Position numbers and translations under genes: made by a program. Shown here one piece after another: positions 49,430 to 53,728 of a stretch of 64,000 nt of DNA. Below the pieces are notes generated by a model that saw nothing but the letters and a program-made list of their open reading frames with translations, ran no database searches and was not told the DNA's origin. The DNA is from a virus: IMG/VR virus record IMGVR_UViG_3300047299_000128, positions 1 to 64,000 of that record, one strand, 5' to 3'. The first letter of the stretch is position 1. Each line of letters begins with the position of its first letter.

Positions 49430-49609
49430 ATGATGAATAAAGAACCCGTGGAACTATTCTGTACCGAAGACGATGATGGGCTTTGGCTTGTCTGGTTCCC
49501 GCATCCTCTTGGCGGTATGAATGTGCTAGAAACTTTTAACAACGAAACCGAAGCTCGTGCATTTTGGCAAGAGCAATTGGATTCGGCAGATTTTGGAGAT
49601 AAAGAATGA
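49430..49609 (+). CDS. small acidic hypothetical protein
   Basis: Start moved to the ATG after the -10 box; coupled (ATGA) to the helicase-MTase gene. Confidence 0.65.
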   Translation: MMNKEPVELFCTEDDDGLWLVWFPHPLGGMNVLETFNNETEARAFWQEQLDSADFGDKE

Positions 49610-52600
49610 GTTATGTTAAAAGTCCAGTAGAACTTGGCCTTAAGACAAATTGCCAAGGCATCTACATCGAAACTAATAGTCCTAGAATCGAAGGTCTGCT
49701 AGGTACAGGTTATCTAGAATTTGGTATTGGTGACACTCGTGAAGATGCACAATACAGTACCATTGCAAGCCGAATGAAGGGTCACGAAAGCTCTAAAAAT
49801 CTGGGCTGGCAACATTATCTCTTAGATTCTATCCCAACGCCTGGATATCGAGATTATGCATTGCATAAAGAAGTTCGGCAATCATTTGCGGCACAACATA
49901 AGGACCCAATTACCGGTAAGCGAAACGAAGTTTTTCGTGTAGCGGTAGAAGAGATGTTGGTCCAACAATTTGTTAAGTCTAAGGATTTTGAACCTATCCG
50001 TATTTGGTTGACTGAAAAAGTTCGTAAGTGTGCGGCCAAACTGAATCCCAATCATGAGAAACAGGCAGTGACTAAGCGTGATATTCAGATTCTTGTTATT
50101 AAGAAAATCTTGTCTACTCTGCGACAAAAGGGTCTAGTCACTAACTTCGTTTGCGAACTTGCCGCTCGTATCGGTAAGACTATTTTGTTCTTATCTCTTG
50201 CAAAAGAAATGCGAGAAGAATTCGGTCATGAAGCCATGTTTGTTATGGCCTATGGCGTTGGCTTGAGCGTTAAAACATCTTACAAAGACGAATGTGCAAA
50301 ATACAGCGACTTTGACATGATGCAGTTTATCGATGCCGCTGATAATGATGCCGAAAGTCAATATAAGCAAGCTATTGCAAAAGGCAAAATGCCTGTAGTG
50401 TTTATCAGCCTTAATCCCGACGCAGAAGAAAAATATGAATGGATTAATCAACTAGCAGGTACCTATATTGCCCTGCTAGAAGAAACCGACTTTGGCACTC
50501 ATACAGATAGTCAAGTAGAAAAAGTTGATTACATTTTAGAAAACAAAACAGCTACTCGTATCAATGCTAGTGGCACTAATATTGGTCGACTGGCTAAGGC
50601 GTTTGGCGAGAATGCCATTGATGAGATTATTAGCGTTCCCTACTGTATGGTAGAACAAGATCCAAGCATTCCTAATGTAGTAGTGCGCCGATTCTACAAT
50701 ATGTTGTTTAATAGTCGTATCAATAAACTACTAGAAGACTTTGACAAGGATCTGTTGCCTAACATTACAAAGATCTTGTCTAAGCCTTTGAGTCAGCAAA
50801 AGTTTATTAGTGCATTGTTCCAAGATATCTTTGGGTATCAACCTATCTACGGATTTAATATCAGTGACTGTGCTGGTGAAGAAATTAAACACTCAATGTT
50901 GTTTGTTAATATCTCTAAGCAAGCAATGGATCAACTTGCAGAAGTCATTGAAAAGGCATGCCCTGAGCATAAGGTTCTAATCCTCAACAGCTACTATACT
51001 GACAACAAAGAAGCCGAAGGTGATACCAAAGAAGAACTAGTTCGCCTACAAAACAGATATTATGAAGACCGTGACAAACTGCTAGTGATCACTAACATGA
51101 TGGGCACTCGCAGTTATAGCATTCCGGAGATTCAAGCATGTTTGTTTATGCAAGAAGGCGGAGATGTCTATCCTTACATGCAGAAGTATAGTCGTTGCCT
51201 TACACCCGGTTATGGTAAAAAGTTTGGTCACATCTTTGACTTTGCGTTTGATCAGAGCAAGACTCGTAATACTGTAATGAGTGTTGCAGTAGAAGCGGCA
51301 TTATTGATTCGTCAAAAAGGTAAAACTTATCCCGACGCAGTTCGCGAAGTGTTGAATAGTGTCAACATTAAGGATATGGTTTCTGGCAACTGGATCGATG
51401 CTGACGAAGTTATCAAGCAGTTCGAAGACAACAATAAGTTGTTGGAGATTGCAAACGCACATACACGGATTACCATCGAAGATCTTACTTCTGAAGAGAT
51501 TGAAGCATTTGGAGAGTTGGCTAAACGCTCTTCTGGAAGTAAGGCAGAAAAGTCTAAGATTGATAAAGTTGTTGCTACTGGTAAGACTTTTGATTCTGGT
51601 AATACTGCCTCTGGTAGACCAAAAAAAAATCCTCTTAAAGCAATCGTAGAAAAAGCCATTCGCATGATTAACGGAAGTGCTACCACTGTGCTAGCCTTAA
51701 GCAATTATCAAGGAGAAAGTTTCCTTGAGTGTGTAGATATCATCGATGCTAGTGCAGAAATGAGCCGTGAGTTTGCAGAACTATATGGCGTATATCCCGA
51801 TACAATTAAGCGGCTTGCAAATCGCCTAGAGATTTCTACGCTAGACATGATTGTTAGGATGAGTAAATATAACAACAAACAGAAGCACATCGAGAACAAT
51901 GCACTGGCTATTCTTAAAGATGATCCAAAACTTTGGTTTGATATCTTTGGTAATCGAGAACTAAAGCGTTTTATTAAGAGTAAACATTGCAAACGGATTC
52001 TTGTAGTAGCAGGCGGCCATGGTTCCGAGATCGATGTTCTTGTGGACATGTTTGGTGTTGAAATTGTAGACAAGATTGTGTATAATGACAAATACAGTTT
52101 TCTCTGTAATCAGATTAAACGCAAGTATCCTACTATTGAAGTAGTTAAAGGAGACTTTACAGAATTGGAGTTTAGTATGAAATTTGATGTAGTAGTAGGG
52201 AATCCTCCTTATCAGGATTCTAATAATGATAAGAGAATGTTATGGAATCAAATTCTAGACAAAGCGACCGAAGTTACTAACAACAATGGTTATATTGCGA
52301 TGGTCACACCAACAACCTGGCTTACTGCAAAAACAAATATCCACAATAGTTATAAAATGTTTGAAGAAAAGCAAGTAGAGCGAGCAGTCATTTTTGATAA
52401 AAATGACAAACCGTTTGATGAAGGAACCAGCGTTTCTTATACCATTACTAAAAACATAAAACGAACAGCTCTTACTCCATTGTATTTTGCACAATACTCT
52501 GCGGGAGTAGAAAATCATGTTGCAGATATTGATATCTCTAAAGATAAAATTTGGCCAGGCCAACTTACACCTGTGAATATTGCTATACACAATAAACTTC

Positions 52601-53073
52601 AAACTCACAAAAAGATTAAATTCTTAAAGAGCTGTGAGTTCCATAATCAGAAACTTAAAACAAAAAAGATGGTATCTGACACTAAAGATTCTGTATTCCA
52701 ATACACACATCATGTTAGTGCCGCTATTACAAGATACACTAATACTAAATTTAGTGCCCACGATACTTGGAAAGTAATGGTCCCTGTTACATCGACTATC
52801 GATAAAGCAGTAATTGATAATAATTGCGGCCATGGAGAGGACATGCTGAGTCTGTATGTTAAAGATGAAAAAACTGCGTTAAATATCAAAAGTCTTTTTA
52901 ATACTCGATTTTATAAATTTATAGGTATCTTATATAAAAGCGGCAGAAATCAGCCATTGCAAAATCTATTTCCCGTAATGGATTTTACAAAAGTTTGGAC
53001 TGATGCAGAACTATACGCTTATTTTAGTCTGAAGCAAGAAGAAATTGACTATATCGAAGCCAATGTTAAGTAA
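49606..53073 (+). CDS. restriction-modification-like fusion: GIY-YIG-like nuclease + SF2 helicase + N6-adenine MTase catalytic half + TRD
   Basis: GIY..IG.T..R..H / LH..NEVF N-terminus; AARIGKT, LLEETD, ASGT, QKYSRCLT helicase motifs; KFDVVVGNPPY; Eco57I-like C-terminus. Confidence 0.75.
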   Translation: MSYVKSPVELGLKTNCQGIYIETNSPRIEGLLGTGYLEFGIGDTREDAQYSTIASRMKGHESSKNLGWQHYLLDSIPTPGYRDYALHKEVRQSFAAQHKDPITGKRNEVFRVAVEEMLVQQFVKSKDFEPIRIWLTEKVRKCAAKLNPNHEKQAVTKRDIQILVIKKILSTLRQKGLVTNFVCELAARIGKTILFLSLAKEMREEFGHEAMFVMAYGVGLSVKTSYKDECAKYSDFDMMQFIDAADNDAESQYKQAIAKGKMPVVFISLNPDAEEKYEWINQLAGTYIALLEETDFGTHTDSQVEKVDYILENKTATRINASGTNIGRLAKAFGENAIDEIISVPYCMVEQDPSIPNVVVRRFYNMLFNSRINKLLEDFDKDLLPNITKILSKPLSQQKFISALFQDIFGYQPIYGFNISDCAGEEIKHSMLFVNISKQAMDQLAEVIEKACPEHKVLILNSYYTDNKEAEGDTKEELVRLQNRYYEDRDKLLVITNMMGTRSYSIPEIQACLFMQEGGDVYPYMQKYSRCLTPGYGKKFGHIFDFAFDQSKTRNTVMSVAVEAALLIRQKGKTYPDAVREVLNSVNIKDMVSGNWIDADEVIKQFEDNNKLLEIANAHTRITIEDLTSEEIEAFGELAKRSSGSKAEKSKIDKVVATGKTFDSGNTASGRPKKNPLKAIVEKAIRMINGSATTVLALSNYQGESFLECVDIIDASAEMSREFAELYGVYPDTIKRLANRLEISTLDMIVRMSKYNNKQKHIENNALAILKDDPKLWFDIFGNRELKRFIKSKHCKRILVVAGGHGSEIDVLVDMFGVEIVDKIVYNDKYSFLCNQIKRKYPTIEVVKGDFTELEFSMKFDVVVGNPPYQDSNNDKRMLWNQILDKATEVTNNNGYIAMVTPTTWLTAKTNIHNSYKMFEEKQVERAVIFDKNDKPFDEGTSVSYTITKNIKRTALTPLYFAQYSAGVENHVADIDISKDKIWPGQLTPVNIAIHNKLQTHKKIKFLKSCEFHNQKLKTKKMVSDTKDSVFQYTHHVSAAITRYTNTKFSAHDTWKVMVPVTSTIDKAVIDNNCGHGEDMLSLYVKDEKTALNIKSLFNTRFYKFIGILYKSGRNQPLQNLFPVMDFTKVWTDAELYAYFSLKQEEIDYIEANVK

Positions 53074-53728
53074 AGTAATTGATCACATTCGCAACCGCAG
53101 TTACATGAGCGGTGTAGATCGAGAGAAGTCTAGGGTAAAGGCAACAGGAGAAGTCTTTACTCCGACTCCTCTTGTGCAGGAAATACTAGATCAATTGCCC
53201 GCTGAAGTGTTTACTGATCCTACTAAAACTTTTCTAGACCCAACTTGCGGTGACGGTCAGTTTCTTGGAGAAGTTTTAATCCGTAAGATGGAGAATGGCT
53301 CAACATTTGAACAAGCATTGTCTACTGTATACGGCGTTGACTTGATGATTGATAATGTAGACTTGTGTCGTGAACGATTGCTCTGCGGCAGGGAAGATCT
53401 GCGTCATATTGTAGAAAAGAATATAGTGTGCTATAATGGCTTGGAATACGATTTCGAATTTTCTAGAAGAAAAAACATAGAAGTTAAGCATGAAAATAAA
53501 GTAAGGAAAGATGCAGAACGTGCAAGAAAGAAAGCAGAAAAAGAATTAGAAGCGGCAAGAAAGAAAGCAGAAAAAGAAAAGTTAAAAATAGAAAAACTTA
53601 AAACAGAAGCAAGGAAAGTTATATGGAACTTGATGGTTCTTAAAACAGGAAAAGCACCAACAGAGACTATAATTGAACGGGAATTAAGAAAACGATTTCC
53701 AGATGTAAAAGGCAAAACTGCTCACTAA
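53063..53728 (+). CDS. N6-adenine methyltransferase SAM-binding half
   Basis: GEVFTP (motif X), FLDPTCGDGQF (motif I), YGVDL (II); no NPPY; Lys/Glu-rich tail; start moved to ATG 53063. Confidence 0.8.
   Translation: MLSKVIDHIRNRSYMSGVDREKSRVKATGEVFTPTPLVQEILDQLPAEVFTDPTKTFLDPTCGDGQFLGEVLIRKMENGSTFEQALSTVYGVDLMIDNVDLCRERLLCGREDLRHIVEKNIVCYNGLEYDFEFSRRKNIEVKHENKVRKDAERARKKAEKELEAARKKAEKEKLKIEKLKTEARKVIWNLMVLKTGKAPTETIIERELRKRFPDVKGKTAH

What the first reader, a model, noticed from the sequence alone, without database searches (positions are those of the whole stretch)
49606..53728. Phage-borne nuclease-helicase-MTase system with a split, permuted methyltransferase
Seen: the 1155-aa protein has a GIY-YIG/T5orf172-like N-terminus and SF2 helicase motifs with a non-canonical Walker B (LLEETD). 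Its SAM-binding loop is degenerate (VAGGHGSE), but it has an intact catalytic NPPY followed by a TRD-like region. The overlapping downstream gene has the complementary half: motif X GEVFTP, motif I FLDPTCGDGQF and motif II, but no NPPY. Known: gamma-class N6-MTases and Type ISP/IIG enzymes carry motifs X-I-II-III-IV on one chain. Inference: the MTase is assembled in trans from two polypeptides in reversed gene order. That would make a two-gene Type ISP/IIG-like system expressed from an early promoter, perhaps used against competing phages or host DNA, or for self-protection.
Basis: partly seen in the sequence, partly recalled or inferred. Interest (0 to 1): 0.8.

Follow-up and report, generated by a model that had tools for sequence, protein, structure and literature searches.

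The report
Phage motor-nuclease-methylase with half-methylase partner
A freshwater jumbo-phage fragment carries an early operon for a restriction-enzyme-like motor/nuclease/methylase protein, followed by a separate "half" methylase that belongs to a large, unrecognised phage family of methylases naturally split into two genes in reversed order.

Summary
One part of the reading fails: the large protein's SAM loop is not decayed. A802, G804, G806 and E808 are invariant in 18 homologues down to 34% identity. Its model aligns over residues 766-1142 with whole gamma-class adenine methylases such as TaqI, CamA and BseCI. Overall it has the architecture of a Type ISP enzyme, but with a T5orf172/GIY-YIG-like nuclease instead of an Mrr-type one.

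The small protein carries motifs X, I, II and III. It follows the large gene in every one of about 45 related loci that reach that far. It belongs to a phage-restricted family of more than 850 clusters. In 70 of 78 informative sampled viral loci this family sits directly after an NPPY+TRD gene. In many phages, including cultured S-CAM7, that upstream gene starts exactly at motif IV. There the methylase is truly split and order-reversed. Fused relatives fold like beta-class methylases.

In this window, M858 aligns with those start codons and has GGAG 6 nt upstream. Across relatives, such internal Met codons carry Shine-Dalgarno-like sequences as often as real starts do.

Best reading: a nested 298-aa catalytic+TRD product pairs with the small protein. 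This is inferred, not shown.

The parts
49395..49423 (+). Sigma-70-type promoter, TTGACA-17-TATAAT, 12 of 12 matches. It contains the phage's recurrent TTGACACAAATT box.
   Evidence: box noted in earlier finding e1-6081484
49430..49609 (+). 59-aa acidic ORF. Its stop overlaps the large gene's start (ATGA). The C-terminus SADFGD(E/K)E is conserved.
   Evidence: Conserved directly upstream of the large gene in about 24 related loci
49606..53073 (+). Large gene, 1155 aa: nuclease-like, ATPase, coupler, methylase and TRD domains in one chain
49606..50055 (+). Residues 1-150: T5orf172/GIY-YIG-like domain. G18, Y20, G42, R56 and E108 are invariant.
   Evidence: weak Pfam T5orf172 match in 4 of 7 members, best E 0.0034
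50071..51285 (+). Residues 156-560: SF2 (Snf2 / Type III Res / Type ISP-like) ATPase. Invariant GKT 190-192, EE.D 292-295, SGT 322-324 and Q526/R530.
   Evidence: VIA-align Z 14-15 to CSB, BRM, SNF2h and the EcoP15I Res N-lobe
51286..51900 (+). Residues 561-765: helical coupler-like region
   Evidence: LlaBIII aligned over model residues 157-1126
51901..52176 (+). Residues 766-857: the large protein's own SAM-binding half. It has AGGHGSE motif I, ND motif II and GDF motif III. It has no canonical FTP motif X.
52167..52179 (+). GGAG, a 6-nt spacer, then in-frame ATG (M858). This is a candidate internal start for a 298-aa catalytic-half+TRD product.
52177..53073 (+). Residues 858-1155: motif IV (NPPY 866-869) through motif VIII, a swappable TaqI-like TRD (about 906-1110) and a conserved C-terminal helix
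53063..53728 (+). Small gene, 221 aa from ATG 53063. The core (residues 1-135) carries motifs X, I, II and III. A variable Lys/Glu-rich tail follows.
53727..53760 (+). Intrinsic-terminator-like hairpin followed by a T-run; closes the three-gene unit

Best explanation
This is a three-gene early operon found only in phages.

The 1155-aa protein is a single-chain, Type ISP-like enzyme. In order, it has a T5orf172/GIY-YIG-like nuclease, an Snf2-like SF2 ATPase, a helical coupler, a complete gamma-type N6-adenine methylase and an exchangeable target-recognition domain (TRD).

The small protein is the SAM-binding subunit (motifs X, I, II, III) of a widespread phage family of two-piece methylases. 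Their gene order is reversed: the catalytic half plus TRD comes first and the SAM half second.

The full-length large protein already has its own conserved SAM half. The small protein therefore most likely pairs with a shorter, nested product of the same gene. That product would start at M858 (GGAG, 6 nt, ATG at 52177). It would comprise motif IV to the end of the TRD (298 aa), the same extent as the stand-alone upstream genes of related phages.

The locus would then make two enzymes that read the same DNA site through one shared TRD sequence:
- a motor-nuclease, which could attack unmethylated host or rival DNA;
- a two-subunit stand-alone methylase, which would protect the phage's own DNA.

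Shown here: domain content, conservation, gene linkage, the existence of truly split and of fused-permuted relatives, the beta-class-like fold of a fused relative, and enrichment of ribosome-binding-like sequence at the internal Met.

Inferred: use of the internal start, the physical pairing, adenine-N6 specificity, and nuclease and translocase activity with their targets.
For: (1) Architecture.
- Invariant catalytic-type residues occur in all modules across 18 homologues.
- Foldseek and VIA-align match LlaBIII over model residues 157-1126 (Z 17.7).
- They match CamA, TaqI and BseCI over residues 766-1142 (Z 20-21).

(2) Linkage.
- The small gene overlaps or abuts the large gene in every locus with room, about 45 in all.
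- It stays 57-86% identical where the large protein is only 33-35% identical.

(3) Family context.
- The small-protein core has 855 relatives (50%-identity clusters) at E<1e-10. Nearly all are 130-250 aa, and they are virus-only.
- In 80 sampled viral loci, 70 of the 78 with room upstream have an NPPY gene ending at the small gene. Of these, 8 have fewer than 60 aa and 9 have 60-99 aa before NPPY.
- In the 9 loci inspected of 33 further loci (22 carry the M-x-FD...NPPF start motif), the upstream gene starts at M-x-FDVV..NPPF, with an in-frame stop 0-19 codons upstream.
- Cultured Synechococcus phage S-CAM7 has the split pair. Aeromonas phage avDM12-TAAL has the fused permuted form.

(4) Fold.
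- The fused relative P0183 was modelled with pTM 0.76.
- Its best structural matches are beta-class methylases spanning both halves: MboIIA Z 12.9, BceJIV, CcrM, RsrI, PvuII (model residues 1 to 427-454).
- Gamma-class enzymes align only to residues 1-294.

(5) Internal start.
- A Met 5-12 residues before NPPY is present in 113 of 120 distinct contexts.
- In genes with an N-terminal extension, 61% of these Met codons have an anti-SD duplex of -4 kcal/mol or better. The figure is 57% at true starts of the short genes and 12.6% at other internal ATGs (Mann-Whitney p 1e-24).
- The observed SD strength exceeds synonymous-codon shuffles, -4.44 vs -2.82 kcal/mol (Wilcoxon p 5e-8).
- In close relatives the residue before the Glu codon varies (L, T, M) but its codon always ends in G, which keeps GGAG/GGAA.

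(6) TRD exchange. P0026 is 80-96% identical over residues 1-857 but 19% over 906-1110.
Against: - No product starting at M858 has been observed. No RNA or protein data exist for this phage.
- One clade of large-protein homologues (L070-L083) keeps the Met but has no SD-like sequence.
- The statistics are not corrected for shared ancestry.
- The Met and SD could be relics of an ancestral gene fusion.
- The conserved Met could have a structural role.
- No multimer prediction was possible, so the pairing in this window is untested.
- Pfam recognises no helicase or nuclease family in residues 1-790. The T5orf172 match is below cut-off.
- Walker B is EE.D rather than DExx.
- Parts of the ATPase model have low confidence.
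Confidence: 0.45

Rival explanations
1. The full-length large protein cannot bind SAM with its own loop, and the small protein supplies motifs X and I-III to the full-length chain in trans.
For: - The large protein's own half lacks the canonical FTP motif X and the acidic residue of DPxxGxG.
- More distant split relatives have weaker loops: VAPCIGQASE in L008, and no GxG in L009. They still keep a canonical small partner.
- The small protein's SAM-contact residues are invariant.
- TIGR02987 is matched in complementary parts by the two proteins.
Against: - A802, G804, G806 and E808, plus the motif II and III positions, are invariant or conserved across 34-79% identity.
- The model places residues 798-848 as beta1-beta3 next to beta4. 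The whole domain superposes on complete TaqI, CamA, BseCI and small Rossmann methylases.
- That leaves no free edge for a second SAM half.
- Some relatives have an intact DPxxGGGQF in cis and still keep the small gene.
Confidence: 0.15
2. The large protein is a self-sufficient restriction-modification enzyme. The small protein is not a catalytic partner here. It would be a SAM-binding regulator or timer of the large enzyme, or it would act on a host methylase or restriction system.
For: - The large protein's methylase domain looks complete.
- The small domain also occurs fused to unrelated proteins: a Rep3 winged-helix protein (P0154), a 942-aa Pro-rich protein (P0139) and P0288. This suggests it can act as an independent module.
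- The window's copy carries a variable Lys/Glu-rich tail.
Against: - A half Rossmann domain is unlikely to be stable or useful alone.
- Its near-universal position after an NPPY+TRD gene points to one conserved job, completing that fold. This includes genes that cannot work without it.
- Its identity does not track the TRD type, as expected for a part that docks on the conserved catalytic half.
Confidence: 0.2
3. The large protein is not restriction-like. It would be a protective or anti-restriction DNA methylase-translocase, in the manner of phage P1 DarB (from memory, not tested). It would use ATP to move along phage DNA and methylate it. The N-terminal domain would be non-nucleolytic or would serve another role.
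For: - The genes are phage-only and none occur in 185,579 prokaryote genomes. They are expressed early.
- The nuclease assignment rests on weak profile matches.
- TRD swapping would also suit adaptation to host restriction specificities.
Against: - G18, Y20, R56 and E108, the GIY-YIG catalytic set, are invariant across the family.
- The domain order copies Type ISP enzymes.
- A separate stand-alone methylase would be redundant if the large protein only methylated.
Confidence: 0.15

Closest known systems
[quoted passage not shown]
   Same: One polypeptide with the order nuclease, SF2 helicase-like ATPase, coupler, gamma-class N6-adenine methylase, TRD. The structural match spans model residues 157-1126 (architecture as described in PMC4666363).
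   Different: - The nuclease is T5orf172/GIY-YIG-like, not Mrr/PD-(D/E)xK.
- The protein is about 400 aa shorter.
- Walker B is EE.D.
- It is encoded by phages only.
- It is always accompanied by a half-methylase gene and a small acidic ORF.
- No sequence-family membership was detected.
Beta-class amino-methyltransferases (M.MboIIA, M.RsrI, CcrM, M.PvuII)
   Same: - The motif order is IV-VIII, TRD, X, I-III.
- The fused relative P0183 matches them best, across both halves (Z 10.9-12.9).
   Different: - Here the order is spread over two overlapping genes.
- The sequences belong to the Eco57I/N6_Mtase (gamma-type) lineage with a TaqI-like TRD, not to Pfam N6_N4_Mtase.
- This looks like an independent permutation.
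Naturally split C5 methylases M.AquI and M.EcoHK31I
   Same: An active methylase made from two polypeptides encoded by adjacent genes. They are discussed as the known natural examples in PMC3404938 and PMC2836561.
   Different: - Those are cytosine-C5 enzymes and, as far as I recall, bacterial. They are split at another place in the fold.
- Here the enzyme is of the amino-methylase (NPPY) type, split between motifs III and IV, with reversed gene order, and found only in phages.
Gamma-class N6-adenine methylases M.TaqI, M.BseCI, CamA
   Same: - The large protein's residues 766-1142 superpose on the whole enzymes (Z 19.9-21.1).
- The small protein's residues 28-136 match BseCI residues 10-117 by sequence (E 2.6e-5).
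- P0234 is a one-chain relative in the canonical order whose N-half is 49% identical to the small protein.
   Different: Those are single chains with one SAM half. This locus encodes two SAM halves for one catalytic half.
Type IIG/IIL enzymes (BpuSI, MmeI, Eco57I family)
   Same: - Eco57I Pfam domain.
- Nuclease, methylase and TRD in one chain.
- Structural matches at Z 16.7-18.6.
   Different: They have no ATPase motor. Their nuclease is of the PD-(D/E)xK type.

Membership tests
Type ISP restriction-modification enzymes | Single chain with the order nuclease, SF2 ATPase, coupler, methylase, TRD | tested here: met
   Conserved motifs in that order. LlaBIII aligned over model residues 157-1126, Z 17.7. 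LlaGI is also hit.
Type ISP restriction-modification enzymes | Mrr-family PD-(D/E)xK nuclease at the N-terminus | tested here: not met
   The N-terminal 150 aa carry a GIY...G.G...R...E pattern. They match T5orf172/MUG113 weakly, and no Mrr or PD-(D/E)xK family was matched.
Type ISP restriction-modification enzymes | Gamma-class N6-adenine methylase with NPPY and a C-terminal TRD | tested here: met
   Pfam Eco57I E 2e-13. Residues 766-1142 superpose on TaqI, CamA and BseCI.
Type ISP restriction-modification enzymes | ATP-driven translocation from an unmethylated site, and cleavage on collision | not testable with these tools
   Needs biochemistry.
GIY-YIG / T5orf172 nucleases | Conserved Tyr (GIY), Gly (YIG), Arg and Glu in the right order and spacing | tested here: met
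   G18, Y20, G42, R56 and E108 are invariant in 18 homologues. Y20, G42, R56 and E108 are also kept in the distant L008 and L009 forms.
GIY-YIG / T5orf172 nucleases | Profile score above the family cut-off, or a clear fold match | tested here: inconclusive
   PF10544 is matched in 4 of 7 members, best E 0.0034. The window's copy scores 13 bits against a cut-off of 20. A profile search against PDB sequences found nothing. The domain was not folded alone.
Beta-class (permuted) amino-methyltransferases | Motif order IV-VIII, TRD, X, I-III | tested here: met
   The order holds across the two genes in the window. It also holds within one chain in P0183, P0302, P0304, P0295-P0299 and the Aeromonas phage protein.
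Beta-class (permuted) amino-methyltransferases | Sequence membership in the N6_N4_Mtase family | tested here: not met
   Only Eco57I, N6_Mtase, MTS and UPF0020 are matched.
Naturally split (two-polypeptide) DNA methylases | Each polypeptide lacks motifs that the other supplies | tested here: inconclusive
   This is met in relatives: L010-L042, 8 of the sampled loci, and S-CAM7. In the window the full-length large protein has all motifs. It would be met only for the proposed M858 product.
Naturally split (two-polypeptide) DNA methylases | Methylation only when both parts are present | not testable with these tools
   Needs co-expression and m6A read-out.

The most novel reading that the evidence does not exclude
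Two enzymes would be read from one TRD sequence by nested translation. The full-length product is a motor-nuclease. A 298-aa internal-start product assembles with the downstream half-methylase into a stand-alone methylase of identical specificity. This would give a phage an offensive restriction-modification system whose two arms can never drift apart.

The wider family holds canonical, extended-plus-partner, split and fused-permuted forms. It would then be a living series of the steps by which methylases become circularly permuted (gamma order to beta order).
Probability: 0.4. Interest if true: 0.85.

Novelty: new variant of a known kind. Interest (0 to 1): 0.7.

Why it matters
- It would add a phage-borne, GIY-YIG-type branch to the ATP-dependent single-chain restriction enzymes.
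- It would be the first natural two-gene, order-reversed amino-methylase that I could find. Full-text searches returned only the C5 examples M.AquI and M.EcoHK31I.
- The half-methylase family is large and virus-restricted. It is annotated as 'hypothetical' or as a generic methylase fragment, even in cultured Aeromonas and Synechococcus T4-like phages. Phage methylome predictions that require a one-chain enzyme will miss it.
- The family offers natural intermediates for the duplication/permutation model of methylase evolution.
- It offers ready-made split methylase halves for protein engineering.
- A shared-TRD nested gene would be a compact way to keep restriction and modification specificities locked together while TRDs are swapped.

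Tried and rejected
Context came from the search for related loci instead.
- Megablast of the locus against phage records found no match.
- Sequence search of the large protein against PDB gave only chance hits.
- A profile of the N-terminal domain against PDB sequences found nothing.
- hhalign of the small-protein profile against the large-protein profile aligned in the right register (31-97 to 770-823) but was not significant (E 0.33). 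The two SAM halves are therefore not recognisable paralogues.
- hhalign of the 374-aa gene upstream of the short split pairs against the large protein found no relation.
- No relative of the large protein was found in 185,579 prokaryote genomes. The small protein was found only in 13 MAG contigs.
- PADLOC gave only generic methylase models.
- An internal sigma-70-like site at 52058-52086 (11 of 12 matches) lies 90 nt before M858. It lacks this phage's promoter box and sits on conserved Tyr-Asn codons, so I give it no weight.
- No RNA holder was listed for the stretch, so expression could not be examined.
- Rfam found no family in the window.
- Literature searches found no phage split methylase. 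The methylase-topology preprint does not mention natural two-gene forms.
- No multimer prediction tool was available.

Full report
**Setting.** The window is part of a 74.7-kb viral record from a freshwater metagenome, judged about 21% complete.
- It encodes a T4-type portal, terminase, sheath, gp32, UvsX and DnaB.
- The portal is about 50% identical to those of PA5oct-like jumbo phages.

**The unit.** The finding lies in a compact unit.
- A perfect sigma-70 promoter sits at 49395-49423.
- A 59-aa acidic ORF (49430-49609) follows; its stop overlaps the next start.
- The 1155-aa gene runs from 49606 to 53073.
- A small gene follows. Its ATG at 53063 overlaps the large gene's stop by 11 nt.
- A hairpin followed by a T-run sits at 53727-53760.

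**Observation.**
- Pfam sees only the Eco57I methylase core (residues 848-935) in the large protein.
- In the small protein it sees only the first third of N6_Mtase.
- PHROGs places the small protein in short 'half' families of 134-156 positions.
- The closest solved sequence is the N-terminus of M.BseCI.

**The large protein.** More than 120 full-length homologues exist in metagenomes, down to 35% identity. An alignment of 18 of them shows invariant residues in every module.
- Nuclease-like domain: G18, Y20, G42, R56 and E108, a GIY-YIG/T5orf172 pattern. Pfam T5orf172 is matched weakly in 4 of 7 members.
- ATPase: GKT 190-192, EE.D 292-295, SGT 322-324, Q526 and R530.
- Methylase: A802, G804, G806, E808 and N866-Y869.

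The AlphaFold model has a mean pLDDT of 76.
- It matches the Type ISP enzymes LlaBIII and LlaGI along most of its length.
- Residues 156-350 match Snf2 / Type III Res ATPase lobes (Z 14-15).
- Residues 766-1142 match the complete gamma-class methylases CamA, TaqI and BseCI (Z 20-21).

The SAM loop is therefore conserved, not decayed. The cis domain is predicted to be a whole methylase fold, although it lacks the canonical FTP motif X.

The TRD behaves as an exchangeable cassette. P0026 is 80-96% identical over residues 1-857 and 19% identical over 906-1110.

No relative of the large protein occurs in 185,579 prokaryote genomes.

**The small protein.** It follows the large gene, overlapping or abutting it, in every related locus that extends far enough, about 45 in all.
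- It is better conserved than its neighbour: 57-86% identity where the large protein is 33-35% identical.
- Its invariant residues are the SAM-contact positions: E30, F32, T33, P34, D59, G63, G65, Y90 and G91.
- An exhaustive search with its core finds 855 clusters at E<1e-10, almost all 130-250 aa long.
- The language-model atlas lists its nearest clusters as 98-100% viral.
- Only 13 MAG contigs carry it among prokaryote genomes.

**What sits upstream of such genes.** I sampled 80 viral loci using the small protein alone. Of these, 78 had room upstream, and 70 of the 78 have an NPPY-type gene ending at the small gene.
- 12 are fused to long motor-like N-terminal parts.
- 40 have 100-199 aa before NPPY.
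- 9 have 60-99 aa before NPPY; those inspected show no glycine loop.
- 8 have fewer than 60 aa before NPPY.
- 1 is cut by the contig end.

Some of the 100-199-aa extensions are recognisable copies of the small protein. They have an intact DPxxGGGQF but no FTP.

A further 33 loci carry the same gene pair. In the 9 of them examined by ORF listing, the upstream gene begins M-x-FDVV..NPPF with an in-frame stop 0-19 codons before it, and a pattern scan found that start motif in 22 of the 33. Those enzymes cannot have a SAM half unless the downstream gene supplies it.

Natural one-chain versions exist in both orders.
- P0234 has the canonical gamma order, and its N-half is 49% identical to the small protein.
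- P0183, P0302, P0304 and P0295-P0299 start at motif IV and end with motifs X, I, II and III.

Cultured phages carry both forms, annotated as hypothetical proteins.
- Synechococcus phage S-CAM7 has the split pair.
- Aeromonas phage avDM12-TAAL has the fused permuted form.

**Fold test.** P0183 was modelled with rows from split pairs in its alignment and gave pTM 0.76.
- A sequence-order-dependent structural search ranks beta-class methylases first.
- These are MboIIA (Z 12.9, rmsd 3.2 Å, 164 residues), BceJIV, CcrM, RsrI and PvuII.
- Their alignments run from residue 1 to 427-454, across both halves.
- Gamma-class enzymes align only to residues 1-294.

So the catalytic half plus the small-protein module form one continuous methylase domain in beta order.

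One NCBIfam profile (TIGR02987) is matched at positions 1-103 by the window's small protein and at 182-304 by the large one.

**The puzzle and the proposed answer.** The window encodes two SAM halves for one catalytic half.

The Met that starts the short upstream genes aligns exactly with M858 of the large protein (MKFDVVVGNPPY). GGAG lies 6 nt before that ATG.

Across 120 distinct NPPY contexts, 113 have a Met 5-12 residues before NPPY. In genes with an N-terminal extension:
- 61% of these internal Met codons have an anti-Shine-Dalgarno duplex of -4 kcal/mol or better;
- the figure is 57% at genuine starts of the short genes;
- it is 12.6% at other internal ATGs (p 1e-24).

The signal exceeds synonymous-codon shuffles, -4.44 vs -2.82 kcal/mol (p 5e-8).

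In close relatives the residue before the Glu changes (L, T, M), yet its codon always ends in G.

There are caveats.
- One clade lacks the SD-like sequence.
- The tests ignore shared ancestry.
- There are no expression data.

The tests above are mine.

**Reading.** They are probably right for this locus too. The partner, however, is most likely a nested 298-aa product, not the full-length chain, whose own SAM half is intact.

The biological role is inferred only from architecture, phage restriction, early expression and TRD swapping. On that basis it would be a motor-nuclease against unmethylated DNA plus a methylase of the same specificity that protects the phage.

The rivals remain open:
- trans-complementation of the full-length protein;
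- a regulatory role for the small protein;
- a protective, non-nucleolytic methylase-translocase.

**Novelty.** Both parts are variants of known kinds: Type ISP-like enzymes and permuted or split methylases. Several features were not found described in the searchable literature:
- the GIY-YIG-type nuclease in this architecture;
- the phage-only distribution;
- the natural split between motifs III and IV with reversed gene order;
- the possible nested shared-TRD product.

Noticed in passing
window 45982-49398: An AAA-type ATPase gene is followed by a 698-aa S8 subtilase with an N-terminal signal-like sequence, then a 69-aa ORF. These lie directly upstream of the operon. The subtilase also matches a PADLOC 'subtilase' model (E 1.9e-8). 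The same genes flank the large gene in L006.
   Followed up: partly
window 53762-53915: A GC-richer non-coding stretch lies after the terminator. It folds at -41.2 kcal/mol (z -2.05 against shuffles). There is no Rfam family anywhere in the window.
   Followed up: partly
L184:4170-5417 (Aeromonas phage avDM12-TAAL) and L185:4522-5878 (Synechococcus phage S-CAM7): Cultured T4-like phages carry the fused permuted methylase (415 aa, starting MHFDYMIANPPY) and the split pair (317 aa + 136 aa). All are annotated as hypothetical proteins. They are usable experimental models.
   Followed up: partly
proteins P0154, P0139, P0288: The half-methylase domain also occurs at the C-terminus of unrelated proteins: a Rep3 winged-helix protein of 551 aa, a Pro-rich 942-aa protein and a 788-aa protein. 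These may be real fusions or gene-calling artefacts.
   Followed up: no
L008:704-1213 and L008:1269-5003: In a distant relative the large protein is split into three genes of 723, 376 and 159 aa. An HNH endonuclease gene sits directly upstream. L009 has a four-gene version (364 + 444 + 448 + 153 aa).
   Followed up: partly
L012:2976-3788: A D12-class (Dam-like) adenine methylase gene lies about 1 kb upstream of one of the short split pairs. Some phages therefore carry both kinds.
   Followed up: no
L055:6415-6570: A homologue of the 59-aa acidic ORF lies downstream of the small gene in one locus, instead of only upstream of the large gene.
   Followed up: no
L010:3880-5004 and counterparts in L012-L042: A conserved protein of about 374 aa with unknown function (no Pfam match) ends exactly at the start of the short catalytic-half gene in many loci. 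It may be a third component of those systems.
   Followed up: partly
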